Source: Desulfuromonas sp. (GTDB taxonomy: Bacteria; Desulfobacterota; Desulfuromonadia; Desulfuromonadales; BM103). From it: a stretch of DNA of 64,000 nt. Position numbers and translations under genes: made by a program. Of the stretch, positions 38,288 to 64,000 are shown one piece after another. The DNA lies in NCBI GenBank assembly GCA_012026975.1, contig VEPG01000056.1, positions 3,871 to 67,870 of the forward strand, in the 5' to 3' direction. Within the stretch, counting starts at the first letter, position 1. Each line of letters begins with the position of its first letter. The notes under the pieces were generated by a model. The model did not search any database. It saw nothing but the letters and a program-made list of their open reading frames with translations, and was not told the origin of the DNA.

Positions 38288-38474
38288 CGCGCATGAAAAT
38301 GTTTCGTTTTACCCTAGCACCGGAGATGCCTAGCATACAACCCATCGAATTGCCGGCAAGGCATTCCCGTGCCTTTTTTAATCCATTAACGGCGGCAACG
38401 AAAGGAGGCTGGAGCTACCCGCATCATTTTAGCATTTCGTCTTATTTAGGGAGCAAATCGTGAAAGGAGAATCC

Positions 38475-39542
38475 ATGGAACGGAAGTCCAGAATCAGCGC
38501 CTCGAGGCTGGTCAGGATCATTCCCCTGCTGTTGCTCGTCGGTGCCTGCGCCACGGGTGTCATCCGGGAGAAGATTCTGAGTCTGCCACAAATCGAGGGC
38601 GCGACTCCGGTGGGGCAAACCGCCTGCCTGGAGTGCCACGAGGACGCTGGCAAACAGATGGCCAAAAGCGTCCACGGCCGCCTCGCCGAGTTCGAACTGA
38701 TGGGCGGCACCGGCGGCTGCGAAGCCTGCCACGGCCCGGGGAGCAAGCACGTCGCCGCCGGGAAGAACGACCAGATCCTCAAGTTCGGGGAGCTTCTCCC
38801 CGAAGAATCCGCCGCAGTCTGCGCCAAGTGCCACAGCAGCGGCAAACTGATGGAGTGGACCCACGGCGAGCATGCTCTAGCCGATGTGGGTTGCGGCGAT
38901 TGCCACGCCATCCACGGCGGCGAGAAATTCGCCCTGAAAAAGCAGGAGCCGGAGCTCTGCTACGGCTGCCACCAGGAGCAGATGGCCAAGGCCAGCTTCC
39001 CCTCGCACCACCCGATCAAGGAAGGGAAGATGGTCTGTTCCGACTGCCACAATCCGCACGGCGAACTGCAGACCGAAGAACTCGCCCGCGACCTCTGCCT
39101 CGAATGCCACGCTCGCTACCAGGGGCCGTTCGTCTTCGAACACGCTCCGGTCGAGGAGGACTGCTCGATCTGCCACGACCCGCATGGCAGTGTGGCCGAC
39201 AACCTGCTGCTGCAGAACGAGCCGTTCCTCTGCCTGCAGTGCCATGAGAGCCACTTCCACACCACGCGCATCGGCAGCACGACCGCCAGTTCGAACCTGG
39301 CGTTTGACGGCAACCAGCTGCAGGGGACGATCCCGGCCAACGGCACCACCATCGCCGCCTCCGGCGACGGCATCCCCTTTACCAACAGCCACGGTGCGGA
39401 TGGCTGGAAAATGGCTTTTGGCACCAAGTGCACCGTCTGCCACAGCGTGGTGCACGGCTCAGATCTGCCATCGCAGACAACCCCGACCATCGGCAACAAC
39501 GGCCAGGGGTTCCCTGACGGCGGCAAGGGTCTGACCCGCTAG
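38475..39542 (+). CDS. decaheme c-type cytochrome, MtrA/DmsE/PioA-like
   Basis: Ten CXXCH motifs in about 355 aa: CLECH, CEACH, CAKCH, CGDCH, CYGCH, CSDCH, CLECH, CSICH, CLQCH, CTVCH. The signal ends in the lipobox-like LLVGAC. ATG 38475 lies 5 nt after AAAGGAGA; the ORF-track GTG 38460 lies in the RBS. Confidence 0.85.
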   Translation: MERKSRISASRLVRIIPLLLLVGACATGVIREKILSLPQIEGATPVGQTACLECHEDAGKQMAKSVHGRLAEFELMGGTGGCEACHGPGSKHVAAGKNDQILKFGELLPEESAAVCAKCHSSGKLMEWTHGEHALADVGCGDCHAIHGGEKFALKKQEPELCYGCHQEQMAKASFPSHHPIKEGKMVCSDCHNPHGELQTEELARDLCLECHARYQGPFVFEHAPVEEDCSICHDPHGSVADNLLLQNEPFLCLQCHESHFHTTRIGSTTASSNLAFDGNQLQGTIPANGTTIAASGDGIPFTNSHGADGWKMAFGTKCTVCHSVVHGSDLPSQTTPTIGNNGQGFPDGGKGLTR

Positions 39543-39569
39543 ATATCTAATCAGGAAGGAGGAGACAAG

Positions 39570-47852: not shown

Positions 47853-48641
47853 ATGCGCAAAACTCTCTTCAATATCACCAAGATCTTGCTCTGCCTGCTT
47901 GCCGGCCTGACCCTCCCCGCTTTTGCCGTCGATCGTCCACCGGCCGACTACACCGATCCGGTGACCGGCATGGAGTTCATGGCGATTCCGGGTGGAACCT
48001 TCACGATGGGTGACAATCAAGACAAAACGGCAAGCCCGGCACACGAGGTAACGATCAAACCGTTTTTGCTCGGTCGGTTCGAGGTAACCTTCGAGCAGTA
48101 TGCCAAGTTCTGTTCGAGTACCGGACGACTGATTCCCTCCGATAGCGGTTGGGGGATGGCCGACCGGCCTGTAATCAACGTGTCCTGGCAGGACGCCGTC
48201 GATTTCACCAAGTGGCTGTCGGAAAAGAGCGGCAAGACGTTTCGCTTACCAAGCGAGGCTGAATGGGAGTATGCGGCACGCGACGGAGCAAAGACGCAGT
48301 TCCCGTGGGGGGACGAGATTGGGGTGAATCGGGCCAACTGCAACGGTTGCGGCAGTCCGTGGGATGGCCGCATGACTGCAACGGTCGGTTCCTTTACGCC
48401 AAATAGTTACAGTCTTTACGACATGATCGGCAACGTCTACGAATGGTGTCTGGATGCCCGGCACGATAATTACCTTGGGGCACCGGCCGATGGGTCGGCG
48501 TGGGAGGATGCGAAGGAAAATTTTCACATGACCCGTGGCGGTTCCTGGTACCTGCCACCGGCTGAGATGACCATCATCCGTCGTTGCTGGGCGAATGATG
48601 GACGACGTGAAATCGGGTTTCGGGTCGTTCTTGAAAAATAA
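47853..48641 (+). CDS. formylglycine-generating-enzyme (SUMF1/FGE-sulfatase) family protein, secreted
   Basis: Signal peptide, then MEFMAIPGGTFTMGD...RLPSEAEWEYAARDG...NVYEWC...RGGSW, the classic FGE-family motifs. Confidence 0.8.
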   Translation: MRKTLFNITKILLCLLAGLTLPAFAVDRPPADYTDPVTGMEFMAIPGGTFTMGDNQDKTASPAHEVTIKPFLLGRFEVTFEQYAKFCSSTGRLIPSDSGWGMADRPVINVSWQDAVDFTKWLSEKSGKTFRLPSEAEWEYAARDGAKTQFPWGDEIGVNRANCNGCGSPWDGRMTATVGSFTPNSYSLYDMIGNVYEWCLDARHDNYLGAPADGSAWEDAKENFHMTRGGSWYLPPAEMTIIRRCWANDGRREIGFRVVLEK

Positions 48642-48687
48642 GGTTTGCTTCGGAGCGACCAAACAACACCACGATCCGCGTTTATTT

Positions 48688-51150: not shown

Positions 51151-51210
51151 TATTGATAGTTGTTACACACCCTTGCCGCGAAGACAAGTTGCAGACTGGA
51201 TATTATCGAC

Positions 51211-51251
51211 AAAAAGCCCCTGTCCGGAGCATTCCGAACAGGGGCTTTTTT
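51211..51251 (-). terminator. rho-independent terminator closing the giant-cytochrome gene string
   Basis: aaaaagcccctgt (51211-51223) and acaggggctttttt (51238-51251), with A- and T-runs on both sides. Lies 18 nt downstream of stop 51269. Confidence 0.85.
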
Positions 51252-51268
51252 CGTCTACCGGGTACGGA

Positions 51269-54200
51269 CTACCACGGCGTCGCCGTGTTCCACCCAGGTT
51301 CATCCCCCGCATCCGTCGTAGCGCCGTTGCCATTGGCATCGATGCGACGGTGGCAGTTCTGGGCACTGGTCGTGTAGGCAAGTTGCTTGCTTCCCGTCGA
51401 ATCCAAAGCCGCCCAGGTGGTCCAGTTGGTATCGCTGGCGAACTGGTCGTCCCAGGTATTGAGCCGGGTATCGAGGCAGTTGGTGATCATCAGCCGCGGC
51501 AAGCGTGAGGCATGCGGGGTATGACACTTTGAACAACTGAAGCTGTGGTAGTCGGCGTTGACCGAGGTCCCGGTGATATCGAGATTGGTCAAACCGGTAC
51601 CCGCCGTACCCCATTTGAATTCGGCAGCTGTATACCCATAACGCGTACCGCTTCCGCCCACGCGCGGGGCATTCATCGAAATGTCAGGCGCCGTTGCCAA
51701 GTCTTGCGAGCGGAAGCCACCCATCCAACTCTTGCCGGTATCCTGATAGTCCGTGACCCCCTGGTAAGCCATGTACGGCCGGGTGACGCGGGCGTTGCCG
51801 CTCCCCGTCGGCAGACCGCGCTTGGAGGCGCCGAAGATGTTGCGCGCGGCCGTGGTGTCGTTGGTAAAGCCCTTCACCGAGTTGTTATGACCGATCCAGG
51901 CGGTCTGGATACTGGCCTGAGCATGACACAGGTTGCACAGGCCGTCGTTGGTGGCGTAGGCGTAGGTGGCGTTCGGGCTGGCGTTGTTCTGATCGATCTG
52001 GTAACCGCCATTGCCGGTTGTTGTAAGGCCACCACGCGGCACCGCACCATAGACGTTATCCGTCTGGGCAAAGGTCACACCTGCCTTCGGCGCCCCGTCT
52101 TCCTTGTAACCACTGGGCCGCCAGGTGCCGCGCAGGTAGGGTTTGCCGGAGGCCGTATCGCCAGTCGTCTTATTCAGGTCGTGGACATCGTGGCAGTAAG
52201 AGCAAACCACGAAATCCACAGTCTCCTTGGTGGTCCCCACGGTGGAACCGGTATCGTGGGACGACCAGCGGGCATGTCTTGTCGACGGTTTGGCGCTCAG
52301 GATACCGTTCTTATAGGTGAAGAGGGCGCTGCTCCAAGTGCCGGCGGCGTCGAACCAGCTCTTCTTGTTGTAGCTACCGTAGTTGTAAGTGCCGCCGTTA
52401 TTGGTCCCCCATTCGGAAATATCACCGGCATCGGCCAAAGACCCGTTGTTGTTCTGGTCATGGCAGTTCCAGCACATTTCCGGTTCGGTGGCCCCCGAAG
52501 TTGATGTGCCGCCAATGAAGAGGGCGCCATGTTCACCACTCGAGAGCACGTAGTTGATGCCAACGGTCGTATTATTGGCAATGGTGATAACGCCGGTTCC
52601 GGTCTTATGGAACGGATGGCACTTGCCGCACTGGGAATCCCAATTGGTCGAAGTGGTAATTGTGTCTCCCGTCAGGGCTTTCAAATGCGAGCCATAGACG
52701 GTCGTCTTACCCGTAGCGTTGCCTGTCGGCCAGACCACCACCGGCCCTGAGCCGCCAGGGCCATGACAGCCACTGCAGCCACCACCCTTGAAGCCGTCGC
52801 TGTGCTTGTGGCAGGTGGTACAGCGGGTACCGGTGTTGTGCGTATTGGTTTCGTTGATCCCCCGCCGGTAGTAACCGGCCTTGGTCTGGTTGTGGCAGAT
52901 CTCGCAGATGCCGTTGGTCGCCGTACTGACGCCGTAGCTGTTGGTGGCGTTGCCAGTAAGCGCGGTGAAGGTCACCGCCGTGATATTCGCCGTATCCTGC
53001 GGCGTACCGTAACTGTCGGAGCCAATCGTGGCATCCGTCGAGGTGAGCGGCGCCGAGATGTGGCTGCGGACCATATAGTAGTTGGTGTCGCCGTGTGGGT
53101 CGTGGCAGTCGACGCACTTGTAGTCATAGTTATTAGGCCATGTTTTAGTGCTGCCGGTTATTGCCTTGGTATGCGCTTGGATAGTCGGCGTATCGTGGCA
53201 ACCGGCCTGCAGGCAGAGTCCGTTGGTGTTGGTGGCATAGGCGCCGAGCCGGAACGGATCGGTGGCCGAGGCCGCCGGGGAATGCTGTGCAGCGCTGCTG
53301 TGGCAGGTGTAGCAGCCTGGGGTCGCCGTACCGGTGTAGGAAGACAGGTTGGCAGCCGCATTGCTACTCCAGGTATAAGCCGTCGTGCGGCCATGACCAT
53401 ACGTATTGTACTGACCGGTGAAGGTCACCGGGTTGGGGATCGTGTCGATGGCCGGCTTGGTGGTGCCGGTCTCGGTCGCGGCCAGGCCGCCGCCGTGGCA
53501 GTCGAAGCAGCCGTTGGTCAAGGTGCCGCCCCAGGTCGGGGTCGCCCCGCCGTGGCAGACCGTGGCGGCACAGGTGCCGTCGTCAAGATGGGTGGCACCG
53601 GCGGCATTATAGTTGACCCCGCCGGCAGTGCTGGCGGTGTCGGTGTAGGTGCCCGCACCGCTATTCATATAGAAATTCACCGTCAGATTCTGGTGCAGTC
53701 CGCCGCCGCCACCCGTGGCCGTGTAGACCGATGCCCCACGGCTCCCTGAGACGTTGTAGGTGGCATTGCCGTGGCAATTATCGCAGTCGGTGTAGGTGGC
53801 ATCGTTGTTGGCATGGGCAGCATGACTGCGGCCGACGCTGGCCGCGCTCGGCAGCGGGCCGGTGCCGCCGGTGTTGTGGCAGCTGCCGCAGGTGACCGTC
53901 GCACTCCACTGCGGCGTGGTCACGCCGTTATGGCAGATGACATTGTTGCAGGTGGTGCTGGCACCGACGAGCGCGCCGTTGCGGGCAGCCGCGGCCGCTT
54001 CGTAATTCATTGCGGTGGCGAAGTTCAGGTCATCGGCGCCGTTGATGTGGTTGGCGCCGGTCGCCACACCGCCGCTGGTTGCCGTCGAGTTGTGACAGTT
54101 GAAGCACTCGTTGACGTTGGTGGCGTTCGGCAGCGAGTTGGAAGCCAGATGCTGGCTATGTTTGTTGGTGGCCATCGCCTCCAGATGGCAGATCGCGCAG

Positions 54201-57106
54201 TTGGCCATGCCGGTGGTATTCCAGGCATAGGTGGTCTGCGCCGGAGCGGTGCTTGGCGAAGCATCGGAACGGTGGCAGAAGTTGGTCCCGCAACTGCCGT
54301 AGCTGGTGCGGAAGGTGCCGCCGTAGACCGGTGCCGGCGTCAGGTTGCCGTCGACATTGAAAGTGCCGTTGAGATGGTTGGCCGCCGGCAGGGTGCCGGT
54401 CGGACTCCCCCAGGCGACAGAGGCATTATGACAGCTGGCACAGTTGATGGTCTTGCCGAAGGTGGTTGCGGCATTGGTATGCACCGTGTGCTTGGTGTCG
54501 CTGGTCGGGTTGTTGTGGCAGGCCGAACAGTTCATTGTCGTCGGCAGAGCCGAGGTAAGCACCGTATGGGTCGGAGTGACATACCAGTCCGGGGTGGCTA
54601 CAGGCTCGCTGCCGGCGGCCGCCGTGCCGTACTGGACGTGGCAGTCGACGTTGGAGCAGGTATTGCCGGTGGTCTCGAAGGTGCCCAGGGTGCCGGTTTC
54701 GTCCGCACCGCCCCAGAACACCTTCGGTGCCGCGGCGGTCAGCGTCGTCGTCTTGAAGACATCGGCGGCGGTGGCGCCCATGTGATCGCTGTCGCCAATG
54801 GCGTGGCAGTACTGGCACAGGGCCTGCTGCTTGGTGCTGCTGGCGGCATCGGCCAGCAACTGGTCGACGGTCTGCGCGTAGACCTTGCTGGCCAGCCACT
54901 GCATGTGCAGCTGGTGGGCGCCGACGATGTCGGGCGTAGTGGTGCCGTTGTCGGCGCCGGAAGTGTTCGGCCAGATCTGGCCGGTCGCCGTGCTGCCGTG
55001 GCAGGAATCAGTGGCGCAACCGGTGGCCTCGACCGTGCCGTTGATATGGAAGCTGGCGACAATGGCCGGCGGGTCGGTGGTCGTGGTTACGGTTGAGCCA
55101 TGGCAGTTCTTGCAGGTCGCCGGGAAGGTCTGCGTGTTGTGGGTGGTGTCGGACGGCGGCAAACCATGGCAATAGTTGCTGCAGGTGCCGGCCGTACCCG
55201 GAACATAGGTGGTCCAGTTGGCGGTCCAGGCCGGGGTGGAATCAAGCGCACCGGCATCGCCACCCGGCGTCTTGAAGCCGTGACAGTAGACCGAACAGCT
55301 TAAGGTACCGGAATCGTAGGCTGTCGTGGTGGTGTTGAGCTGGGCCCGGGCACCGAAGGTTAGGTCGGCCGGAGCGGCGATGTTGGTCAGGATATGCCCG
55401 GCGGCATTGACTGTGCCGGGAACGGTATGGCAGTCGGCGCAGGCAACTGCCCCGCCGTTCATCAGGTTGCTGGTGAGCGTCAGGTGGGTCAGGTGCGCGC
55501 CGGCGGCGTTGGCGCTGCGGAACGGCGAGGCCGCGGTCGGGTAGGCATCAGCGGCGACGCCGGAGTCGGTCTTGGCCCGGTTGTGGCAGAAGGTGCAGGT
55601 GCTGGTGTGTGTAGAGCCCCAGGTCGGGCCGGCGCCGGCCGGGCCGCCGTAGAGGGTAGCCGCGTTTGTGCCGCCGTGACAGTCGGTGTTCTCGCACTTG
55701 CCGAGGGTCGGCGTCGAAGTCTGGTTCCAGGCCGTGTCGGCGACATGATCGGCGTTCTTGTCGTAGCGGGCGGTGGCTTTGGCGCCGATGCCACTGACGT
55801 TCATCTCGATGGTGCCGCGACGGTGGCGGGAGGTGTAGGTACCCCCCGGGGTCTGGCTGCCTTCAATGTGGCAGGTGTTGCACTGATAGGCGAAAGTGGT
55901 GCCATGGGTGGCATGGTTCCCCTGGACCGCGCCGGTAGCACCGGTACGGGCGACCCCGTCAAGAACCGGCAGCGGGTGGCAGCCGCCGCAGCCGAGACCG
56001 GTGGTGATCAGGACCGAGTTGGAATCCCACGGGCCGCCGAGCGGCGCCATGTCCGGCGCGAGCACACCGAGCGCCGTGATGCGCGAAATGCAGGTGGTTC
56101 CATCAAGGGCACCCGATGTGATGTCGTAGGTGACCCACAGATACTTCGGGGTGCCCGAGGTCACGGTACGACTGGCGGCGGCGATCGCCGTCAGATCGAC
56201 AACTGTTGATTGGCCGTTCCAGTTGGCGACCGTCGTCGTACCGAGAACCCCGTCGCTGAAGTTGGTGTTCGCATCGATGTGCACCTTAAGGTTGGCAATC
56301 GTGCCGGTGGCCGCGATGTTGACGTCGTCAACCGTCGCCGAAGTGATGACGCAGCTACCGTTACCGGTGGCGTCGGAGTTGATTTGCAGGCGCTGCATCT
56401 GGACGTTGGTCTGGCTGGGCTGCGCCGTGGTCGCCACCGTGGTGTTGCTGGTGACGGTCAGGCTGTCCACCACCGCCGGGGTGAAGGTGATGGCGATATC
56501 ATCGGCATAGAGGCTTGAGGTCGCGCCGTTGGTGGCGCCGGTAGTGCTCGACAGCGAGACGGTGATCTGGTTGACGTTCTTGGGCAGGGTCAACGGGAAA
56601 ACGGTCGCGGTCGTATTGGTGACGTTCGTCCAGGCGCTGTTGGCGCCGACTGTGCCAGTAAAGATATTGACCGTGGTCGCATCGCTGTAGCGCAGATCAA
56701 TGGTAATGGTCCTGGCCGTACTGGCGGCGAGGGTCCACTGTTCCATCGCCCAGACGACAACGTCAGTCTTGGCGGCAATGACACCACCGGCCGAAACGGT
56801 AACCGACTGGGTTGCGGTTCCGGTCGAGGCCTTGGCTCGTCCGGTCACCGTTTCGAGGAACGAACCGGTTCCCGCCAGCGTCGCGTGATTCTGCGCGGTC
56901 GAGACGCTGGCGACGCCGTTGGTCGCCGAACCGAGCGACCAAGTGGCGTTCGGGCTGGGGAAGCCACCGTCGGTCACCATCGCCGCGGCCCAGACGGTCG
57001 AAGAAAAAGTGAGGAGCACCACCGCCAACAGGCCGGCCACGCCAAACCGCCAGCGGCAAGATGTTCTCTTCACGGTCTGCTGCGCTTTTGCACGTCGAAT
57101 ATCCAT
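51269..57106 (-). CDS. giant multiheme c-type cytochrome (CxxxxCH/CxxCH repeat family), about 1945 aa
   Basis: Manual count gives about 23 CXXCH plus about 9 CX3-4CH motifs, starting at CGGCH (nt ~55990). A heme-free beta-rich N-terminal region of about 330 aa precedes them. Signal ...GVAGLLAVVLLTFSSTVWA. ATG 57106 (GAGGG 5 nt upstream) is preferred; the ORF-track ATG 57202 would give a pre-signal N-terminus of more than 70 aa. Confidence 0.85.
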   Translation of the reverse strand: MDIRRAKAQQTVKRTSCRWRFGVAGLLAVVLLTFSSTVWAAAMVTDGGFPSPNATWSLGSATNGVASVSTAQNHATLAGTGSFLETVTGRAKASTGTATQSVTVSAGGVIAAKTDVVVWAMEQWTLAASTARTITIDLRYSDATTVNIFTGTVGANSAWTNVTNTTATVFPLTLPKNVNQITVSLSSTTGATNGATSSLYADDIAITFTPAVVDSLTVTSNTTVATTAQPSQTNVQMQRLQINSDATGNGSCVITSATVDDVNIAATGTIANLKVHIDANTNFSDGVLGTTTVANWNGQSTVVDLTAIAAASRTVTSGTPKYLWVTYDITSGALDGTTCISRITALGVLAPDMAPLGGPWDSNSVLITTGLGCGGCHPLPVLDGVARTGATGAVQGNHATHGTTFAYQCNTCHIEGSQTPGGTYTSRHRRGTIEMNVSGIGAKATARYDKNADHVADTAWNQTSTPTLGKCENTDCHGGTNAATLYGGPAGAGPTWGSTHTSTCTFCHNRAKTDSGVAADAYPTAASPFRSANAAGAHLTHLTLTSNLMNGGAVACADCHTVPGTVNAAGHILTNIAAPADLTFGARAQLNTTTTAYDSGTLSCSVYCHGFKTPGGDAGALDSTPAWTANWTTYVPGTAGTCSNYCHGLPPSDTTHNTQTFPATCKNCHGSTVTTTTDPPAIVASFHINGTVEATGCATDSCHGSTATGQIWPNTSGADNGTTTPDIVGAHQLHMQWLASKVYAQTVDQLLADAASSTKQQALCQYCHAIGDSDHMGATAADVFKTTTLTAAAPKVFWGGADETGTLGTFETTGNTCSNVDCHVQYGTAAAGSEPVATPDWYVTPTHTVLTSALPTTMNCSACHNNPTSDTKHTVHTNAATTFGKTINCASCHNASVAWGSPTGTLPAANHLNGTFNVDGNLTPAPVYGGTFRTSYGSCGTNFCHRSDASPSTAPAQTTYAWNTTGMANCAICHLEAMATNKHSQHLASNSLPNATNVNECFNCHNSTATSGGVATGANHINGADDLNFATAMNYEAAAAARNGALVGASTTCNNVICHNGVTTPQWSATVTCGSCHNTGGTGPLPSAASVGRSHAAHANNDATYTDCDNCHGNATYNVSGSRGASVYTATGGGGGLHQNLTVNFYMNSGAGTYTDTASTAGGVNYNAAGATHLDDGTCAATVCHGGATPTWGGTLTNGCFDCHGGGLAATETGTTKPAIDTIPNPVTFTGQYNTYGHGRTTAYTWSSNAAANLSSYTGTATPGCYTCHSSAAQHSPAASATDPFRLGAYATNTNGLCLQAGCHDTPTIQAHTKAITGSTKTWPNNYDYKCVDCHDPHGDTNYYMVRSHISAPLTSTDATIGSDSYGTPQDTANITAVTFTALTGNATNSYGVSTATNGICEICHNQTKAGYYRRGINETNTHNTGTRCTTCHKHSDGFKGGGCSGCHGPGGSGPVVVWPTGNATGKTTVYGSHLKALTGDTITTSTNWDSQCGKCHPFHKTGTGVITIANNTTVGINYVLSSGEHGALFIGGTSTSGATEPEMCWNCHDQNNNGSLADAGDISEWGTNNGGTYNYGSYNKKSWFDAAGTWSSALFTYKNGILSAKPSTRHARWSSHDTGSTVGTTKETVDFVVCSYCHDVHDLNKTTGDTASGKPYLRGTWRPSGYKEDGAPKAGVTFAQTDNVYGAVPRGGLTTTGNGGYQIDQNNASPNATYAYATNDGLCNLCHAQASIQTAWIGHNNSVKGFTNDTTAARNIFGASKRGLPTGSGNARVTRPYMAYQGVTDYQDTGKSWMGGFRSQDLATAPDISMNAPRVGGSGTRYGYTAAEFKWGTAGTGLTNLDITGTSVNADYHSFSCSKCHTPHASRLPRLMITNCLDTRLNTWDDQFASDTNWTTWAALDSTGSKQLAYTTSAQNCHRRIDANGNGATTDAGDEPGWNTATPW

Positions 57107-57208
57107 GGCTGCCCTCATCCCCTTGCCGCACGTATCGTCAAGACGCTGGTTGATCATCGTTCGTACCATCTTTGCCATTCTGTCGGCCGCGAGTTTCATC
57201 ATCTCCTC

Positions 57209-60200
57209 CTACGGCGCCCAGTCCGGCGTGGGTTTCAGGTGACAGGCCACGTTCGAGCAGGTTTGTGTCCCGGTATCGTAGGTTGGCGGGGTGCCATTGA
57301 GGAACCACACGTTGGCCGGCGCCGCGGCGCCGAGGATGTTGCTCGACGGGTCAAGGTGGTTGGCCTGGTTGGACATGTCGTGACAGACGTCGCAGGCCGG
57401 GTAATTGGTGCCGTTCCAGTCGGCCAGGACGCCATCCGGGTTGCCGGCGGCCATGCCGATATCCTGAACCAGATGGATACCGTGCTTCGGATGGGAGCCG
57501 GTGTTCGGCGGCAGGCTGCCGTGGCAGGTGGTGCAGGTGGCAAAGACTTCGGTGACGCCGTTGATATGCTTGGTCACGTCCTTGAAGGTTGCCGCCCCCG
57601 TATTCATCGTATCGGTATGGCAGTTGCCGCACTGGGCCAGCGTCTCGCTGCCGGTATGGCCGGTGATCAGCGGTGGGGCACCATGGCAGCGGTTGCAGTC
57701 GCCGGTCGCTGTGATGGAACCGGTCAGATAGGCACTCTGGTTCCAGCTGGGCATGGTGTCGACGCCGTTGGCCATGGGGGCGCCGTGGCAGTAGTTGCTG
57801 CAGACGCCGGTGGAGTAGCTGGCCGGGGTGCTGTTGGCTGTCGCCAGGGCGCCCCAATTGTTTTCAGCCGGCAGGCTCGAATCGATGTGCCCGACCACGT
57901 TGACCTTGTTGACATAGGTCGACTGGCCGGCCATGGCCGAAACCGTGGCATTGTGGCACTGGTCGCAGGTGATATCCGCCGAATAGTTGTTGAGCGAATT
58001 GAGGTGGGCCGCATGGGCACCGACCTGGGCGTCGGTATCGGCGGTATCGCCACTGGTGTCGCGACCGGTTTTGGTCGGATCGGACATGCCGTGGCAGACT
58101 GAACAGTTGCCATTGGTGGCGCCGGTCGTCCACACCGCCGAAACACCGCCATGGCAGTTGGTCGTGGAGCAGGTATAGAGCGGCTGGTCCGGGTTGGTCA
58201 GGCTGTTGGTGTTGTATTCGAAGGTATCGATGGTGCCGGTGCCGCCGTTGGCCGCGGCCACGGAGACATCGCGGGTCTTGTTGATATGATAGGTCAGCCC
58301 GCCGGCCGAGATTGCACTGTTATTGCTGGCGGTCAGCACATGGCAGTCGTCGCAGGTATAACCGAACTGCTTGTTGGTATCGGATGGATCGGTGCCGATG
58401 TGCGCCAGATGCGAGGCGGTCAGCGTCGTCGTCGTGCCCGGGCCGCCGTGGCAACCGGTGCAGCCGACGGTGGTCGTCCAACTGATGGATTGATACGTCG
58501 GGGTCGCCTGGCCGGTGCTGTGGCAGTAGACATTGGTGCAATTGGTGCCGTTCCAGTTGTTGTTCGGCGTGGCATCGCTGTCCCAGGTGCCGAGAATGCG
58601 GATATCGCGCGTGCCGTTAACGTGGAAGGTCTTGTCGGCGATCGCCTGATCGTTGGCATCGACCGTACCGTCGTGACACATCTGGCACGGCTTGATCGAC
58701 ATGACCGCGGCGGCGCTGACGTGCGAGGGGTGGCCGTTACTTGCCATCGGACTGCCCGAGGCCGCGTTATTGTTATGGCAGCCGGTGCAGTTGGTCGGCA
58801 GCGTCCCGGTCCAGGTTGCAACCACGTTCGGCGCCCCGGCCGTTGCTTTGCCGTTGTTGTGACAGGCGTTGAAGCCGCAGGTGCCGTTGGTGTAGGCGAA
58901 GCTGCCGTCGGGCGAGGTCGCCGCGGCAGTCCCCGCGGCCGTGTAGGTGCCGCCGCCGGCAAGGCCGACCTCGGCCGCCTGCCGGGTGCTGACCACACCG
59001 CCGGAGTGGGTGGTGGCCGCCGGATTGTGGCAGGTCCCACACTGGAAGATGTAGGCCGTCGTCGTGCTGGTGTTGGTGGTCAGGTTGCCGGTCGCCACCG
59101 TGGCGCTGGCATAGTGCTTGGCATGATTCCCCTCCAGCAGGCTGCTGGCGGTATGACAGCCGTCGCAGTTGATGTTCGGGCCGCCCCAGGTCGGGGTGTT
59201 GGTGCCATGACAGTAGATACTCGAACAGGTACCGTAGGTGGCACTCGGAGCCTTGTTGCCGGTCGTGCCGCTGGCGGCGGCGGTTTTGCCGAAGGCCGTG
59301 TACTTGGCATTGGTGCCGATGCGGGTATCGCCCGTAGCCAGCGCCCAGGCGACGTTGCCGTCGAGATGGGCGGTATCGCTGTAGGCCGGATGACACTTGT
59401 TGCAGGTCAGCTTGACGTTGCCGGTGCTCAGCACATGGGTGTTGTGGCTGCCGGTCTGGGGCGGGGCCGTGGTGCTGGTGCTGTGACAGGCGCCACAGCC
59501 GGCCTGGCTGGTACCGACCCAGGACGGTGAGTTGATCAGGCCGCCGTTACCGGCCCAGTTGCCATGGCAGTAAACCGTACAATTCAGATTGTCGTTAGCC
59601 ACCTTGTTGAGAACCGTGACTCCGTCACTGGCGACAAAGGTGTAGGTATTCGTCAGCAGGGCATCCTGCGGGAAGCTCAGGGTCCCGCCGTTGACCGTGT
59701 TGACGAAGCCCGGCACGTTGGTGCTGTTGGCGGCGACCCCCATCTGGATGGTGTAGCTCACCTCCGGCATGGTGTTGCCCGTGTGACAGGTCTCGCATTT
59801 CATCAGCTTGGTGGTGACGTGCTTGGCATGGGCGCCGGGGGCGGTCGCCGGGTTGGCGAGAGCGCCGGTCGCCGAGGGGGCAAACACCATGTTGCTGCTG
59901 GAGGTCGGCGGGTTGCCGTGGCAACTGTTGCAACCAGGGGAGTTGAAACCCTTCTTATGCGGGTGGCAACCCATGCAGTTGGACTGGTTGGCGTGGTTGT
60001 TGTTGCCACCGTTGGTCAAATTGTTTGCCGTGTTGTAGTTGTGGAACTTGTTCTTGCTGTGGCAGGCCTCGCAGATGCGGTTGGAGGTCGCGTGGCCGCC
60101 CGCGTCATTGCCGAGTTGCGACGTACCCGCCTCGACGGTCAATAACTGCACCGCGCCGGCGCCGATTGGGAAGGTATCGGTCGGCGCAGTCAACGTGGTC

Positions 60201-62386
60201 TTGACCCGCTTGACGTTGGTGGTTGAGCGTACATGACAGGTGGCGCACTCGAATTTCCCGTACTGGGCGCTGGTAATCCCCCAGCCATTGACCGTCTTGC
60301 CGCTCTGGGCGATCGGCCACTTGGTCGAGCCGGTGGTCACCGAGTTGTGCACCATGAAGTCGATTGCGGTGTTGTCGACGGTGATGTTCCCGGTCTGGGT
60401 CTTCACGACCCCGCCGCAATCCGGGTCGGTGCCGGTGACCTTGAAGGAGACCACCGTTGGCGTGGTAAGGCCGAAATTGCTGCTGTCCCAAGGGGTTTCG
60501 GCATCGACGGCATTGATCTGGTAGGTGAAGTTGGCGACGTTGCCGGTCTTGGTGTACAGGCCGGCAAGGTTGACGATCAGACCGCTGACCGTCTGGCCGG
60601 CGGGGATGGTGAGCGTCGATGGGGTCGCGTCGGTGCAGCCGCCGCCGGTGAAATCGACCGTGTTGTCGACGCTGGACGCGATGCTGCTGGTGTTGCCGGC
60701 CGCATCCGTGGCGGCGCCGGCGGGGATCGACGCGATCACCGTGCCGTTGCCGGTGACGGCTACGGTGACGGTATAGACGGTCGGACCACCGGTCACGCTG
60801 GTCACGCTCATGCCGGTCGCCGTGCCGCCGAGGGTGACATCGGTGGTCGCGAAACCGGTGACGTTTTCACTGAAGGTCGCCGTGAACGTAATCGGCGAGG
60901 TGGCGGTCGGGTCCGCCTGCGCCGCGGCCTGTTCGATGGCCACGCTCGGCGGGAGATTGTCGAATGTCACGGTGTTGTCGGTGCTGGTCGAGGCAACGTT
61001 GGGAAGACCGCTCGTCGAACCGGTCGCCACCCCGGCACCGATGGTGGCAATGACTGTACCGCTATCGGTCGCCGTGACGACCACGGTGTAGGAAGTGCCG
61101 CTCCCGGTGACACTGGTGACACTGGCCGGGGCCGTTCCGGCAAGGGTGATATCACCGGCAACAAAACCGGTAACACTCTCCGAGAAGACCACCTTGTAGG
61201 TGATCGTGCCGTTGGTCGGGTCAGCCTGAACAGGCGCGGTGGTGCTCTGGTTGATCGTCACCGTCGGATTGACCAGCGTGGTGAAGGTGACCGTGTTGTC
61301 GGTGCTGGTCGAGGCGTTGTTGGGGTTGCCGAAAACATCCGTGGCCACGCCCGCGCCGATGGCGGCGATGACGGTGCCGGATGTCGTCATTCCGGTCACC
61401 GCCACGTTGTAGGTCGTGCCGCTGCCGGTCACGGTCGCTGTCTTCGTGCCACCGGCCGTCCCCGTAATCGTCACGTCGCCAGTGGCAAAGGTCGTCGTCG
61501 ACTCGCTGAACACCACGGTGAAATTGATCGTCGCGCCGTTGGTCGGGTCCGCCTGGGCACCAGCCTGGTTGATGGTGACATTCGGATTCCAGTTAATGAC
61601 CACCTTGCCGGCAAATCCGGCGCCGCCGGATTTGTTGCCGCCGGACGAACGGTTCCCCGAACCACTGCCGCCGCCGCCGGGACCACTGGCGGGGGTGGTG
61701 CCGGCGCTATTGGCCGCGCCGCCGGCGACACCCGGACCGCCACCAGTGACGGCCGCCGCACCGGCATTGCCGGCCTGGGTCGTGGTGGTGAAGTTACCAT
61801 TCGCCGCAGTGCCGGCCGAGCCGCCGCTGCCACCGCCGGTTTTGGCCACGTCGTTATTGGCGCAAGCACCGTTTCCGCCCGTGAACTTGGTGGTCCCGAA
61901 GCCGGAACCCGCCGCGCCGCCGGCGCCACGCGTACCGCCACCGGCGCCGTCACTGAGACCACCACCGCCGCCGCCAGGAGCCATGATGGTCGTGGCATTG
62001 TTGAAGAAGCTGGCGGTCCCGGCACTACCGGCAGCGCCGGCATTACCTGCCCCGCCGGCACCGACCTGGTAGGGGTAGGAGCCTCCCGAGGTCACGGTGG
62101 CCGTCCCTTTCGAATAGGCACCGCCACCGCCACCGCAGCCACCGTAGTTATCGTTGGTCGCGTCACCGCCACCGCCACCGCCGGCGCCCCAGACTTCAAC
62201 CGAAACCGAGGTAACAGCCGCCGCCCCCGAGGGGGCCGTCCAGTTGCCGGTCGCTACGGTCGAGTAAACCTGCTGCCCCGCCCGGGCGCTCCCGGCCAGG
62301 CCAATCATGCCGAGCGTGACGGTAATGATCGTCACCAGTGCCGTGCGCAGCAGACCATTCATGGCGGATGCATTCTGTCTGTTCAT
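57209..62386 (-). CDS. giant chimeric protein: glycine-rich domain + 3 Ig-like repeats + multiheme (CxxxxCH/CxxCH) region, about 1725 aa
   Basis: Signal MNGLLRTALVTIITVTLGMIGLAGSARA. Gly-rich region VEVWGAGGGGGG...GGCGGGGGAYS... (nt ~61592-62269). Three ~105-aa repeats. About 19 CXXCH plus about 7 CX3-4CH motifs from CATCH (nt ~60247) onward. ATG 62386 has GGAAGGTG 5 nt upstream. Confidence 0.85.
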   Translation of the reverse strand: MNRQNASAMNGLLRTALVTIITVTLGMIGLAGSARAGQQVYSTVATGNWTAPSGAAAVTSVSVEVWGAGGGGGGDATNDNYGGCGGGGGAYSKGTATVTSGGSYPYQVGAGGAGNAGAAGSAGTASFFNNATTIMAPGGGGGGLSDGAGGGTRGAGGAAGSGFGTTKFTGGNGACANNDVAKTGGGSGGSAGTAANGNFTTTTQAGNAGAAAVTGGGPGVAGGAANSAGTTPASGPGGGGSGSGNRSSGGNKSGGAGFAGKVVINWNPNVTINQAGAQADPTNGATINFTVVFSESTTTFATGDVTITGTAGGTKTATVTGSGTTYNVAVTGMTTSGTVIAAIGAGVATDVFGNPNNASTSTDNTVTFTTLVNPTVTINQSTTAPVQADPTNGTITYKVVFSESVTGFVAGDITLAGTAPASVTSVTGSGTSYTVVVTATDSGTVIATIGAGVATGSTSGLPNVASTSTDNTVTFDNLPPSVAIEQAAAQADPTATSPITFTATFSENVTGFATTDVTLGGTATGMSVTSVTGGPTVYTVTVAVTGNGTVIASIPAGAATDAAGNTSSIASSVDNTVDFTGGGCTDATPSTLTIPAGQTVSGLIVNLAGLYTKTGNVANFTYQINAVDAETPWDSSNFGLTTPTVVSFKVTGTDPDCGGVVKTQTGNITVDNTAIDFMVHNSVTTGSTKWPIAQSGKTVNGWGITSAQYGKFECATCHVRSTTNVKRVKTTLTAPTDTFPIGAGAVQLLTVEAGTSQLGNDAGGHATSNRICEACHSKNKFHNYNTANNLTNGGNNNHANQSNCMGCHPHKKGFNSPGCNSCHGNPPTSSSNMVFAPSATGALANPATAPGAHAKHVTTKLMKCETCHTGNTMPEVSYTIQMGVAANSTNVPGFVNTVNGGTLSFPQDALLTNTYTFVASDGVTVLNKVANDNLNCTVYCHGNWAGNGGLINSPSWVGTSQAGCGACHSTSTTAPPQTGSHNTHVLSTGNVKLTCNKCHPAYSDTAHLDGNVAWALATGDTRIGTNAKYTAFGKTAAASGTTGNKAPSATYGTCSSIYCHGTNTPTWGGPNINCDGCHTASSLLEGNHAKHYASATVATGNLTTNTSTTTAYIFQCGTCHNPAATTHSGGVVSTRQAAEVGLAGGGTYTAAGTAAATSPDGSFAYTNGTCGFNACHNNGKATAGAPNVVATWTGTLPTNCTGCHNNNAASGSPMASNGHPSHVSAAAVMSIKPCQMCHDGTVDANDQAIADKTFHVNGTRDIRILGTWDSDATPNNNWNGTNCTNVYCHSTGQATPTYQSISWTTTVGCTGCHGGPGTTTTLTASHLAHIGTDPSDTNKQFGYTCDDCHVLTASNNSAISAGGLTYHINKTRDVSVAAANGGTGTIDTFEYNTNSLTNPDQPLYTCSTTNCHGGVSAVWTTGATNGNCSVCHGMSDPTKTGRDTSGDTADTDAQVGAHAAHLNSLNNYSADITCDQCHNATVSAMAGQSTYVNKVNVVGHIDSSLPAENNWGALATANSTPASYSTGVCSNYCHGAPMANGVDTMPSWNQSAYLTGSITATGDCNRCHGAPPLITGHTGSETLAQCGNCHTDTMNTGAATFKDVTKHINGVTEVFATCTTCHGSLPPNTGSHPKHGIHLVQDIGMAAGNPDGVLADWNGTNYPACDVCHDMSNQANHLDPSSNILGAAAPANVWFLNGTPPTYDTGTQTCSNVACHLKPTPDWAP
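60641..61585 (-). repeat. three tandem ~315-bp coding repeats (Ig-like modules)
   Basis: Repeat consensus: VTINQ..AQADPTNG.I.F.VVFSE.VTGF..GD.T..GTA....V.G.GT.Y.V.VT....GTVIA.I.AG.A.D..GN.N..S.S.DNTV.F. Seen three times at ORF-track residues about 285-390, 390-495 and 496-597. Confidence 0.8.
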
Positions 62387-62408
62387 GTTGACACCTTCCA
62401 AAGCGCCT

Positions 62409-62450
62409 GATTTCAAACTGTTCATTATCATGATCTTACTTTCCGGGCAA
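62409..62450 (-). promoter_or_regulatory. candidate internal promoter with overlapping Fur-box-like operator upstream of the chimeric cytochrome gene
   Basis: Minus strand: TTGCCC (62445-62450), a 17-nt spacer, then TAATGA (62422-62427). GATCATGATAATGAACA overlaps the -10 element. The adjacent GTTTGAAATCA shares GATTTCAAA (plus strand 62409-62417) with the feo-locus motif. Confidence 0.4.
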
Positions 62451-62501
62451 ACTAGTCATCGTCATCTTTCCGTTGCCGGCGCGCCGTACGGCCAGCGTGC
62501 C

Positions 62502-64000
62502 TTACTGCGGCACGCTGGCGTGACAGGCCGAACAGTTGCCCGAAGCCGACACCGTACCCCAGGCCGGGGTCAGGATGCCGTTATGGCAGTCGACGGTGGA
62601 ACAGGTCTTGGCGCCCGAGTTCCAACCCGGTACGACGTTCTTGCCGCTGTCGTAACCGAGACCGGTCGCCTTTTTGTAGTCGCCGGAGACGCGCGACCAC
62701 GAGGTGTTGAGCGACGCGACGGTGGTGATGTCGTCACGAATCTGGGCCTTCGACTTGAAGCCGGAGAGGCTGGCGAAGGTGACCGTCGGTGCACCGTCGA
62801 GGTGCGCGGACGAACTGACCTTGATGACCGCCAGTTCGTTACCGGTGACCGGGGTGTTGCTATCACTGTGGCAAGTGGCGCACAGCGTGTTGCCGGCGTT
62901 GTACTCGACCGTCATCGTGGAGTTGTGACAGGTCTGGCAGCCGAGGGTGTCGGAAGTGGCACTGTTGCCATGTGCCGCCCCGGCATCGGTGGCCGGAACC
63001 GCCGACGACGGCATCAGGCCGTTGCGGTCATCATCATACAAGGTGTCGTAATGGATACCGACAGCGTGCAGGTTGTGCGCATTGGTGGTCGGGCTGTTGC
63101 CATGACAGCTGGCGCAGGACATGCCACCGTTCGGGTTGGTCAAATCCCAAACCGCGGTGTCGGGATAGACGCCGTCATTGATGCCGTCACTATGGCAGTA
63201 GACGCCCGAGCACTTGCCGGTGATTGAGGTAAAGGCTGCCGTGGCGCTGTTGTTGCGCTTGGCGTTGACGGCCGGGATGCCGGCCTCGCCCGTCGAGGTC
63301 AGCTTGGTGTTGGGCGCATTGTTGCGATGCAGGGCCACATCGGCCGGGTGGCACTGGCCGCAGCCCATGAGCAGCTTGCCGGTCGCGTCGTAGCTGACAC
63401 TGTACCAGTAGGTTGCATTGCCATAATCGCTCAGGGAGAGCTTCTTGCCGGTCAGCACCGTCGCCATGCTGGTGTGCGACTTGTGATCGGGATCGGAAGC
63501 TTCGCCGTCCTTGTATTTGCCCGTACCGTGGCAATCGAGGCAGTTGTCGCCGCCTTCGGTCTCGACGATGCCATTGATGTGCTTGGTCACGTCGGTGAAG
63601 CCGTTGTCGGCGGCCACGGTGTTGGTATGGCAGGCGGAGCAGTCGGCATCGTTCGGATGGCCGTTGGCCGGGCTGGGCGGATAGCCGTGGCAGAAGGCGC
63701 AGTCGTGGCTGGCAGTGCCGGTGAAGAACGGGGTGTTCCAGTCGGGGACGTTGAGGGTGCCCGACCAGCCGTGACCGATCTTGCTGCCGTCATGGCAGTA
63801 GCTGGTGGCGCAGGTGCCACCCGGGGCGCCGGAGTAGTTGGTCGCGGAGCTGTTGGTGTTGGCCAGCGTACCGAAAACCAGCTCGGCCGGAGAGGTGCTG
63901 TCGAAGTGGCCGACGGCGTTGACCTTGTTCACGTAGGTGGCCTGGGCCGCCATGTTGTCGACCGTGGTCTTGTGGCACTCGCCGCAGGCGATGTCGGAGG
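62502..64000 (-). CDS. multiheme c-type cytochrome of the same CxxxxCH/CxxCH family, 3' part (5' end outside window)
   Basis: The frame stays open upstream of the ORF-track Met at 63953 to the window edge (...SDIACGECHKTTVDN-MAAQATYVNKVN...). 9 CXXCH plus 3 CX4CH motifs are visible. Paralogous to the last ~300 aa of the 57209-62386 product (STYVNKVNVVGH / ATYVNKVNAVGH; DVTKHING in both). Confidence 0.85.
   Translation of the reverse strand, partial: SDIACGECHKTTVDNMAAQATYVNKVNAVGHFDSTSPAELVFGTLANTNSSATNYSGAPGGTCATSYCHDGSKIGHGWSGTLNVPDWNTPFFTGTASHDCAFCHGYPPSPANGHPNDADCSACHTNTVAADNGFTDVTKHINGIVETEGGDNCLDCHGTGKYKDGEASDPDHKSHTSMATVLTGKKLSLSDYGNATYWYSVSYDATGKLLMGCGQCHPADVALHRNNAPNTKLTSTGEAGIPAVNAKRNNSATAAFTSITGKCSGVYCHSDGINDGVYPDTAVWDLTNPNGGMSCASCHGNSPTTNAHNLHAVGIHYDTLYDDDRNGLMPSSAVPATDAGAAHGNSATSDTLGCQTCHNSTMTVEYNAGNTLCATCHSDSNTPVTGNELAVIKVSSSAHLDGAPTVTFASLSGFKSKAQIRDDITTVASLNTSWSRVSGDYKKATGLGYDSGKNVVPGWNSGAKTCSTVDCHNGILTPAWGTVSASGNCSACHASVPQ

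What the first reader, a model, noticed from the sequence alone, without database searches (positions are those of the whole stretch)
57209..60247. Regular triad periodicity: one Cx3-4CH followed by two CxxCH, repeated about six times
In the 57209-62386 product the motif order after the first five CXXCH is: CTVYCH, CGACH, CNKCH | CSSIYCH, CDGCH, CGTCH | CGFNACH, CTGCH, CQMCH | CTNVYCH, CTGCH, CDDCH | CSTTNCH, CSVCH, CDQCH | CSNYCH, CNRCH, CGNCH …, ending in CSNVACH. One triad occupies about 95-110 aa. The same alternation is visible in the other two genes (CENTDCH, CATDSCH, CSNVDCH, CGTNFCH, CNNVICH, CAATVCH, CLQAGCH; CATSYCH, CSGVYCH, CSTVDCH). Both 3- and 4-residue spacers occur. CX4CH is a known but rare heme-attachment variant, for example in tetraheme cytochrome c3. 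Whether these sites are loaded, and by which maturation system, is unknown. If they are, each triad is a triheme unit and the proteins are modular polymers of it.
Basis: partly seen in the sequence, partly recalled or inferred. Interest (0 to 1): 0.6.

Follow-up and report, generated by a model that had tools for sequence, protein, structure and literature searches.

The report
Triheme repeat modules in giant cytochrome
The regular "one long, two short" pattern of heme-binding motifs is real and marks six tandem three-heme modules in a secreted 26-heme cytochrome, but the protein is an ordinary member of an already named, though never experimentally studied, family of giant "heme-wire" cytochromes.

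Summary
The 1740-aa product of 57209-62431(-) has five CxxCH, then six units of Cx3-4CH + CxxCH + CxxCH spaced 113-123 aa apart, then CxxCH, CxxCH and a terminal Cx4CH.

The units align as true repeats, with Cx3-4CH..W..CxxCH..HxxH..CxxCH..H conserved. NCBIfam TIGR01904 "CxxxxCH/CxxCH domain c-type cytochrome" matches seven times (E 5e-48). This is therefore a known, widely annotated family; 57 of 101 sampled genomes of the same order carry it.

New evidence that each unit holds three hemes:
- Across eight orthologs (58-84% identical), all 52 Cys and all 53 His of the heme region are invariant, against 39% of all residues.
- There are 27 non-motif His for 26 motifs.
- In 719 triads from 120 homologs, 718 carry at least three non-motif His.
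- Cx3CH and Cx4CH swap at the same site among orthologs.

The genome has only System II maturation: three CcsA and three ResB paralogs, no CcmE or CcmF. No paralog is specific to this family.

AlphaFold models were mediocre (pLDDT 59-68) and matched nothing in the PDB. Homology to cytochrome c7 or c3 could not be shown.

Verdict: real, well-formed, new member of a known kind. Heme loading is untested.

The parts
57209..62431 (-). Gene for the 1740-aa, 26-motif multiheme cytochrome (P0001). An alternative start at 62386 gives MNRQ...
   Evidence: ORF list, translation. TIGR01904 160.7 bits in 7 stretches. Pfam hits PF09698, PF14522, PF22113, PF21722 and PF19078. The N-terminus reads as a Sec signal peptide (...LAGSARA/GQQ), judged directly from the sequence.
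60632..62431 (-). Heme-free N-terminal part: signal peptide, glycine-rich domain and three Ig-like (Big_12) domains
   Evidence: Pfam Gly_rich_2 at aa 61-281 and Big_12 in 3 stretches. There is no CxnCH motif before aa 729.
59783..60379 (-). First heme block: five canonical CxxCH (aa 729-883), resembling MtrC/MtrF domain II/IV
   Evidence: PF22113 E 7.5e-15, best stretch aa 685-827. Motif positions.
59264..59617 (-). Triad 1 (aa 939-1056): CTVYCH, CGACH, HNTH, CNKCH, AHLDG
   Evidence: A TIGR01904 stretch maps to aa 936-999.
58916..59263 (-). Triad 2 (aa 1057-1172): CSSIYCH, CDGCH, HAKH, CGTCH, TTHSG
   Evidence: Orthologs carry CSIYCH or CSVYCH at this site.
58577..58915 (-). Triad 3 (aa 1173-1285): CGFNACH, CTGCH, HPSH, CQMCH, FHVNG
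58208..58576 (-). Triad 4 (aa 1286-1408): CTNVYCH, CTGCH, HLAH, CDDCH, YHINK. This is the best TIGR01904 stretch (aa 1270-1344).
   Evidence: It is the best-predicted part of both AlphaFold models.
57839..58207 (-). Triad 5 (aa 1409-1531): CSTTNCH, CSVCH, HAAH, CDQCH, VGHID
57548..57838 (-). Triad 6 (aa 1532-1628): CSNYCH, CNRCH, CGNCH, KHING
   Evidence: A TIGR01904 stretch maps to aa 1531-1594.
57212..57547 (-). C-terminal cap (aa 1629-1740): CTTCH, CDVCH and a terminal half-unit CSNVACH..W. The same ending (...2222L) is found in most family members.
   Evidence: A partial TIGR01904 match (24.4 bits) lies at the extreme C-terminus.
51269..57202 (-). Downstream paralogous cytochrome gene (1977 aa, 32 motifs). 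Its regular triads lie at about 53252-54694 and 55334-55732.
   Evidence: TIGR01904 66.7 bits in 5 stretches.
62502..64000 (-). 3' end of the upstream 2743-aa, 61-motif cytochrome gene, which runs out of the window

Best explanation
The gene encodes a Sec-exported multiheme c-type cytochrome of the TIGR01904/PF09698 "CxxxxCH/CxxCH" family, from an uncultured Desulfuromonadales bacterium.

After a heme-free binding or stalk region and a five-heme MtrC-like block, the chain is built from six ancient tandem modules of about 115 aa. Each module carries three covalent heme sites: C-x3/4-CH (consensus C-[SAT]-N-[TV]-Y-C-H-[GS]), CxxCH and CxxCH. Each also carries three conserved distal histidines, an HxxH pair and an H-[VI]-N. 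Each module most likely wraps three low-spin bis-His hemes. A Cx3CH site is a Cx4CH site shortened by one residue.

Hemes would be attached in the periplasm by the System II (CcsBA/ResBC) machinery, the only maturation system found in the genome. The modules would then line up to give one continuous chain of about 26 hemes. That chain would carry or store electrons outside the cytoplasmic membrane, probably at or beyond the cell surface, together with seven neighbouring giant paralogs.

Shown here: the repeat, family membership, conservation of the motifs, the histidine budget and the lyase inventory. Inferred: heme occupancy, bis-His ligation, the linear wire geometry, the cellular location and the electron-transfer role.
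For: - Family: TIGR01904 scores 160.7 bits against a cut-off of 27, in 7 stretches. PF09698 is above its cut-off. The 120 best homologs are named CxxxxCH/CxxCH cytochromes from Geobacter, Geotalea, Anaeromyxobacter and Nitrospirae.
- Repeat: the triads align at 24-33% identity with all motif residues conserved. Forty-eight triads of the genome keep C,C,H/W/C,C,H/C,C,H invariant. In an 89-sequence family alignment the motif residues C38, H39, C59, C62, H63, C95, C98, H99 and the non-motif H76 and H117 are invariant; the first Cys of the long motif (C33) and H79 are nearly so.
- Heme at the long motif: 52/52 Cys and 53/53 His are invariant in eight orthologs at 58-84% identity, against 39% of residues overall. 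There are 27 non-motif His for 26 motifs. Of 719 triads, 718 have at least 3 non-motif His and 503 have exactly 3. Cx3CH and Cx4CH swap at one site among orthologs.
- Module phase: indels and the lowest pLDDT sit just upstream of each Cx3-4CH.
- Maturation: there are three TIGR03144 CcsA and three ResB-like genes, and no CcmE or CcmF-length hit. Another cytochrome family in this genome also has Cx4CH and Cx3CH and sits next to ccsBA.
- Context: the gene lies in a string of eight giant cytochromes with 227 motifs on one strand. A decaheme plus an MtrB/PioB porin lie at 38460-41504. The three-gene synteny is kept in a relative.
- Taxonomy: RNase G is 95-97% identical to Desulfuromonadales MAGs.
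Against: - No experimental datum on any family member was found in the held literature.
- The AlphaFold2 models are of only moderate confidence (pLDDT 59 and 68). No coordinates were available, so His-heme geometry could not be checked.
- Foldseek found no PDB neighbour, so the fold is unverified.
- The cellular location is inferred only from the signal peptide, the N-terminal Ig-like and Gly-rich domains, and analogy.
Confidence: 0.78

Rival explanations
1. The Cx3-4CH sites carry no heme. They would form a disulfide or another metal site, so each unit is a diheme module with a structural Cys pair.
For: No heme occupancy data exist for this family. Long-spacer motifs are much rarer than CxxCH in characterised cytochromes. 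The TIGR01904 model alone says nothing about loading.
Against: The His after the second Cys is invariant in all orthologs and in all 48 own-genome triads. The minimum number of extra His per triad is 3, not 2, in 718 of 719 triads. CX4CH is a proven heme site in class III cytochromes c3 (established knowledge).
Confidence: 0.06
2. Each triad is a diverged cytochrome c7/c3-type domain. The protein would then be a homolog of the Geobacter c7-domain polymers (GSU1996 type) rather than a separate fold.
For: Pfam Cytochrome_C7 (PF14522) scores 90.8 bits and Cytochrom_c3_2 scores 47.8 bits. The triad profile weakly hits basic cytochrome c3 2bq4 (E 0.005) and the c3-built Hmc 16-heme proteins. c3 also uses CX4CH.
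Against: hhalign of the 89-sequence triad profile against this genome's own PpcA-like c7 aligns only 13 columns around one CxxCH, with probability 58%. No c7 or GSU1996 chain is among the 60 PDB sequence matches that were listed, of 121 reported. PF02085 falls below its cut-off, 19.9 against 22.9. The units are 113-123 aa, against about 70-80 aa for c7. Foldseek gave no hit, although the models were weak.
Confidence: 0.15
3. A dedicated heme lyase paralog, the divergent CcsA on contig C76 with its short ResB partner, is needed to load the Cx3-4CH sites. This would parallel the specialised CcsA1 and NrfI enzymes of Wolinella.
For: Three CcsA paralogs exist. The C76 copy is divergent: 34% identity, 155 bits against a cut-off of 187.6, and a WWD motif altered to W-F-S-W-N. 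Its presence correlates with presence of the family across 101 genomes (50/7/20/24, odds ratio 8.6, p 8e-6).
Against: Twenty genomes have the paralog but no TIGR01904 protein, and seven have the family without it. The correlation is confounded by phylogeny and by overall cytochrome richness. No lyase gene lies in the cytochrome string. Long-spacer motifs also occur in an unrelated cytochrome encoded next to the canonical ccsBA.
Confidence: 0.1
4. The proteins stay in the periplasm and act mainly as electron stores (capacitors), not as surface-exposed wires.
For: Very high heme counts have been proposed to serve electron storage (PMC11492766, PMC10734462). No secretion system or porin gene lies in the cytochrome string itself.
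Against: The N-terminal glycine-rich and Ig-like modules are typical of surface or binding proteins. An MtrB/PioB porin with a decaheme partner lies about 10 kb away. Published predictions place comparable Desulfuromonadia clusters outside the cell (PMC11492766).
Confidence: 0.2

Closest known systems
CxxxxCH/CxxCH domain c-type cytochromes (NCBIfam TIGR01904; Pfam PF09698 GSu_C4xC__C2xCH)
   Same: Direct member, with seven above-threshold domain matches. It has the same long-spacer motif consensus, the same giant secreted architecture and the same taxa (Desulfuromonadia, Anaeromyxobacter, Nitrospirota).
   Different: The curated domain (73 positions) covers only the Cx4CH and the first CxxCH up to HxxH. 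The full repeat found here adds a third CxxCH and an HxN histidine, giving a unit of about 115 aa with three hemes and six His. No member has been studied experimentally, as far as the held literature shows.
Cytochrome c7-domain polymers of Geobacter sulfurreducens (e.g. dodecaheme GSU1996), as cited in PMC11492766
   Same: A single polypeptide built from tandem triheme modules, thought to form a linear heme wire or electron store.
   Different: The modules here are 113-123 aa rather than c7-sized. Each starts with Cx3-4CH and carries six conserved His. Homology to c7 could not be shown.
Tetraheme cytochrome c3 (class III) of sulfate reducers
   Same: It uses CX4CH as a true covalent heme site with bis-His ligation. 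There is weak profile similarity (2bq4, E 0.005).
   Different: c3 is a small, single-domain, four-heme protein. PF02085 is below its cut-off here. c3 is matured by a different system in its native hosts (my own knowledge).
MtrC/OmcA/UndA surface decaheme and undecaheme cytochromes
   Same: The first five-heme block matches MtrC/MtrF domain II/IV (PF22113). The triad profile hits UndA. A similar extracellular electron-transfer role is presumed.
   Different: Those proteins have a staggered-cross 10-11 heme core with beta-barrel domains, not a long array of triheme repeats.
PCC3 giant multiheme cytochromes of Fe(II)-oxidisers (PMC5566968, PMC10734462)
   Same: Very large, repeat-rich, Thr/Ser/Ala/Gly-rich cytochromes with about 35-40 aa per heme. 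CX3CH and CX4CH are counted as sites, and the proteins are modelled as long linear wires.
   Different: PCC3 is defined by a cluster holding a porin, a periplasmic cytochrome and a five-helix inner-membrane protein. That layout is not present around this string. Homology to PCC3 proteins was not tested.

Membership tests
TIGR01904 / PF09698 CxxxxCH/CxxCH domain cytochromes | HMM score above the curated cut-off | tested here: met
   TIGR01904 scores 160.7 bits against 27, in 7 stretches. PF09698 scores 30.0 against 21.7.
TIGR01904 / PF09698 CxxxxCH/CxxCH domain cytochromes | A CxxxxCH motif followed within a few tens of residues by CxxCH, repeated several times in one protein | tested here: met
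   There are seven long-spacer motifs. Six are followed by CxxCH after 20-35 aa. The family-wide median spacing is 29 aa.
TIGR01904 / PF09698 CxxxxCH/CxxCH domain cytochromes | Covalent heme c at both motifs | not testable with these tools
   Only indirect support is available: invariance of Cys and His among orthologs and the histidine budget.
Cytochrome c7-type domain polymers (GSU1996-like) | Each module is homologous to triheme cytochrome c7 | tested here: not met
   hhalign of the triad profile against the genome's own PpcA-like c7 aligns 13 columns only, with probability 58%. No c7 or GSU1996 chain appears among the 60 listed of 121 PDB profile hits. The PF14522 hit spans 110 aa for 62 profile positions and is carried by the motifs.
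Cytochrome c7-type domain polymers (GSU1996-like) | Structural superposition on the c7 heme core | tested here: inconclusive
   Foldseek against the PDB gave no hit for either model, but the models have pLDDT of only 59 and 68.
Class III cytochrome c3 | Match to PF02085 above the gathering score | tested here: not met
   19.9 bits against a cut-off of 22.9, and only at aa 1570-1639.
PCC3 porin-cytochrome cluster | Adjacent porin, periplasmic multiheme cytochrome, extracellular multiheme cytochrome and a five-helix inner-membrane protein | tested here: not met
   The string holds only giant cytochrome genes, followed by a fused MFS/spermidine-synthase gene. The nearest porin (MtrB/PioB-like, with a decaheme) lies about 10 kb away on the other strand.
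Polymerising cytochrome nanowires (OmcS/OmcE/OmcZ) | Sequence or fold relationship to a filament subunit | tested here: not met
   Only a motif-level hit to OmcS (E 0.0046, one stretch). No Foldseek hit.

The most novel reading that the evidence does not exclude
The roughly 115-aa unit (Cx3-4CH, W, CxxCH, HxxH, CxxCH, HxN) and its 173-aa five-heme variant would form a distinct heme-packing fold with no solved relative. Because the fold can be lengthened in steps, a single polypeptide would serve as a wire of tens of nanometres, needing no polymerisation; paralogs in this genome reach 61 motifs. Wire length would be tuned by gain and loss of whole modules. The near-identical 1458-bp four-module duplication in the neighbouring gene, and the 1778-aa versus 2743-aa orthologs in close relatives, would be examples of that tuning.
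Probability: 0.3. Interest if true: 0.55.

Novelty: new member of a known kind. Interest (0 to 1): 0.3.

Why it matters
Giant CxxxxCH/CxxCH cytochromes are common in metal-respiring and sediment bacteria; 57 of 101 sampled genomes of this order carry them. Yet no member has a structure, a measured heme count or a tested function.

A precise module definition (three hemes, six histidines, about 115 aa, with boundaries in the variable linker before each Cx3-4CH) gives a small, expressible unit for structure determination and spectroscopy. It also gives a rule for counting hemes in such proteins.

For this particular gene the result is mostly a clean annotation. It does not open a new kind of biology.

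Tried and rejected
- AlphaFold2 on three triads (aa 1173-1531), with 56 rows of homologs and own-genome paralogs: pLDDT 59, pTM 0.46. Foldseek against the PDB gave only noise, E above 4.
- AlphaFold2 on one unit (aa 1266-1394), with 89 diverse triads: pLDDT 68, pTM 0.56. Foldseek against the PDB gave zero hits. Model coordinates are not exposed, so His-His distances could not be measured.
- A first alignment of overlapping double triads (A1) aligned out of register and was discarded. A 61-row alignment was too large for the predictor.
- Full protein against PDB sequences: nothing better than E 0.97. The triad profile against the PDB gave only CxxCH-driven hits.
- hhalign against the genome's own c7: motif only.
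- Dedicated-lyase idea: the phyletic test showed association but no specificity.
- Looking for relatives of the neighbouring fused MFS/spermidine-synthase gene in genome contigs returned nothing.
- The literature searches found the family used only as an annotation marker. No paper describes the triheme unit or tests heme loading. One search had an invalid term.
Full report
**What is there.**
The finding lies in a 1740-aa ORF on the minus strand, 57209-62431. Coordinate 60247 is the first Cys of the first CxxCH. A regular-expression scan of the translation gives 26 C-x(2-4)-CH motifs, and only four other cysteines in the whole protein.

- Five CxxCH lie at aa 729-883.
- Six units follow, each with the order Cx3-4CH, CxxCH, CxxCH. 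The long motifs sit at aa 951, 1069, 1185, 1298, 1421 and 1544.
- The protein ends with CTTCH, CDVCH and CSNVACH, 15 residues before the stop.

The next gene (51269-57202, 1977 aa, 32 motifs) shows the same unit in 5 of 8 intervals. The third gene runs out of the window. Its in-window C-terminal part is not triadic, but the full 2743-aa gene is.

**Is it more than chance, and is it a true repeat?**
- Shuffling the long and short labels among the motif positions reaches the observed regularity with p = 4e-4 for gene 1 and 3e-3 for gene 2.
- The six units align with each other at 24-33% identity. Every motif residue is conserved, together with a Trp, an HxxH pair and a further His.
- Forty-eight such units cut from seven genes of the same genome align with invariant C,C,H / W / C,C,H / C,C,H, with HxxH in at least 90%, and with an H-[VI]-N in about 70%.
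- An 89-row alignment of diverse family units gives this consensus: HVN...C-x-N-x-Y-C-H-S-x-G...W...CxxCHG...HxxH...CxxCH..T....T.I.....HVNK..DV.
- At DNA level the gene has no self-similarity above 51%. The repeats are therefore old, and the periodicity survives a proper repeat alignment.

**What it is.**
- NCBIfam TIGR01904, "CxxxxCH/CxxCH domain c-type cytochrome", matches at 160.7 bits against a cut-off of 27. It matches in seven stretches, which map to the six units plus the C-terminal half-unit.
- Pfam PF09698, "Geobacter CxxxxCH...CXXCH motif", is also above threshold.
- A homolog search returned at least 262 relatives. The named ones are "CxxxxCH/CxxCH domain-containing protein" from Geotalea, Geobacter, Anaeromyxobacter, Kofleriaceae and Nitrospirae.
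- In 101 sampled genomes of the same order, 57 carry the family (33 of 51 genera), with ORFs up to about 4400 aa.
- The window's RNase G is 95-97% identical to those of Desulfuromonadales MAGs.

The pairing of a long-spacer motif with a CxxCH is thus a catalogued domain. The curated model covers only the first two motifs of each unit, up to HxxH. The third CxxCH and the following HxN lie outside it, or at the start of the next match.

**Family-wide architecture.**
I coded each motif as L (3-4 spacer) or 2, in the 120 best homologs. Successive L motifs are separated by exactly two CxxCH in 727 cases and by four in 365 cases. Other numbers are rare.

The family therefore has two module types:
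- a three-heme unit with a median length of about 115 aa;
- a five-heme unit with a median length of 173 aa.

Most members end, like this one, with L2222L at the C-terminus.

**Are the long motifs heme sites, and is the unit triheme?**
No tool can show heme. Four lines of sequence evidence point the same way.

1. Among eight orthologs with identical motif architecture and 58-84% identity, all 52 Cys and all 53 His of the heme region are invariant. Only 39% of all residues are. The long-spacer sites are conserved exactly like the canonical ones.
2. The heme region has 27 non-motif His for 26 motifs.
3. In 719 triads from 120 homologs, 718 have at least three non-motif His and 503 have exactly three. 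HxxH is present in 94%, and a His after the third motif in 99%. A diheme unit would need only two. Pentads likewise have at least five non-motif His in 362 of 364 cases.
4. Cx3CH is a Cx4CH shortened by one residue. The consensus is C-[TSA]-x-Y-C-H-G against C-[SAT]-N-[TV]-Y-C-H-[GS], and the two swap at the same site among orthologs (CSSIYCH against CSIYCH or CSVYCH).

CX4CH is an established heme site in class III cytochromes c3. Published surveys count CX3CH and CX4CH as heme sites (PMC11492766, PMC5566968, PMC10734462).

**Module boundaries.**
Insertions and deletions in the triad alignments concentrate in the segment between HxN and the next Cx3-4CH. The AlphaFold models are least confident there (pLDDT about 40 at the T4/T5 junction). 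They are most confident from the third CxxCH through HxN, at 81-89.

**Structure and relation to known folds.**
- The full protein has no PDB relative by sequence.
- The triad profile hits only CxxCH-driven partial matches: reaction-centre tetraheme subunits, UndA, cytochrome cf, NrfA, Hmc, and c3 2bq4 at E 0.005. None spans a whole unit.
- hhalign against the genome's own PpcA-like c7 aligns 13 columns.
- The two AlphaFold2 models reached pLDDT 59 (three units) and 68 (one unit). Foldseek found nothing in the PDB.

I therefore say the protein probably works like the c7-domain polymers described for Geobacter (PMC11492766). I do not file the unit as a c7 or c3 domain.

**Maturation.**
- The genome (2.83 Mb, 116 contigs, 91% complete) has three PF01578 genes of about 280 aa. 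All are best matched by TIGR03144, the System II CcsA/ResC type, at 299, 251 and 155 bits.
- It has three ResB-like genes, two of them adjacent to a CcsA.
- It has no CcmE and no CcmF-length hit. System II is thus the only system present.
- None of these genes lies in the cytochrome string.

The divergent copy on C76 (34% identical, WWD motif altered to W-F-S-W-N) is a conserved ortholog group in 70 of 101 genomes of the order. It co-occurs with the family (50/7/20/24, odds ratio 8.6, p 8e-6). However, 20 genomes have it without the family and 7 have the family without it. The association is confounded by lifestyle and phylogeny, so it gives no good evidence for a dedicated lyase. A "doubled CXXCH" cytochrome encoded right after the canonical ccsBA also carries one Cx4CH and one Cx3CH. 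This fits a general machinery that accepts these spacers.

**Context and likely role.**
- The protein starts with a Sec-type signal peptide, read from the sequence. A glycine-rich domain and three Big_12 Ig-like domains follow, then a five-heme block like MtrC domain II/IV (PF22113), then the triads.
- It sits in a co-directional string of eight giant cytochrome genes (C42:55142-105986) with 227 motifs in all.
- The three-gene core is syntenic in a relative whose ortholog is 82% identical.
- A decaheme and an MtrB/PioB-type porin lie at 38460-41504.
- The genome holds 61 ORFs with three or more heme motifs, up to 83 in one ORF.
- The ratio is about 38-40 aa per heme, similar to proteins proposed as molecular wires (PMC5566968).

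The most likely function is a long, single-polypeptide heme chain for electron transfer or storage at or beyond the cell surface. Location and function are inferences.

**Novelty.**
The family is named, and the modular wire idea is published (PMC11492766, PMC5566968, PMC10734462). Earlier notes of this scan describe the same triheme modules in other genomes, which agrees with what I found independently.

What this analysis adds is a sharper unit definition and a histidine-budget argument for three hemes per unit. I rate it a new member of a known kind, of modest interest.

Noticed in passing
L014:2302-3509 and +1458 (G000:C42:66375-74603; only its 3' end is in the window at 62502-64000): The upstream 2743-aa, 61-motif cytochrome gene holds a 1458-bp direct tandem duplication, equal to 486 aa or four triads, at about 98% identity over at least 1.2 kb. 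The orthologous gene in a close relative (L107:4553-9889) is only 1778 aa. This suggests recent module expansion, or possibly an assembly artefact.
   Followed up: partly
G000:C42:55142-105986 (window 51272-64000 and beyond): Eight giant multiheme cytochrome genes lie head to tail on one strand, with 227 heme motifs in about 50 kb. Elsewhere in this 2.8-Mb genome, contig C75 carries ORFs with 83 and at least 78 motifs.
   Followed up: partly
homologs P0013-P0015, P0019, P0020, P0052, P0064 and others: A second module type exists in the family: one Cx3-4CH followed by four CxxCH, with a median length of 173 aa and at least 5 extra His. It dominates in 18 of 120 homologs, including Anaeromyxobacter proteins.
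   Followed up: partly
G000:C76:28678-30782: A divergent System II pair lies here: a CcsA with an altered WWD motif (W-F-S-W-N) and a short, 354-aa ResB-like partner. The CcsA is conserved at 61-84% identity in 70 of 101 genomes of the order. Its substrate is unknown.
   Followed up: partly
G000:C108:16292-19791 (L001): The canonical resB-ccsA operon is followed directly by an 11-motif "doubled CXXCH" cytochrome. That protein itself starts with CVTVDCH and ends with CYVGCH.
   Followed up: partly
window 38460-41504 (+): A decaheme (paired-CXXCH) cytochrome is followed by an MtrB/PioB-family porin, about 10 kb from the giant cytochrome string and on the other strand.
   Followed up: partly
window 48000-52000: GC content drops to 53-57%, against about 63-65% around it. 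The low-GC stretch lies over the fused MFS/spermidine-synthase gene (48688-51150, -), next to an FGE-sulfatase-family gene (47853-48641, +). In the relative L107 the cytochromes are followed instead by TPR, GT2 and FGE-sulfatase genes.
   Followed up: partly
window 57212-57256 (aa 1725-1740) and the C-termini of most homologs: Family members typically end with a lone Cx4CH followed by a Trp a few residues before the stop. This looks like half a module used as a C-terminal cap.
   Followed up: no
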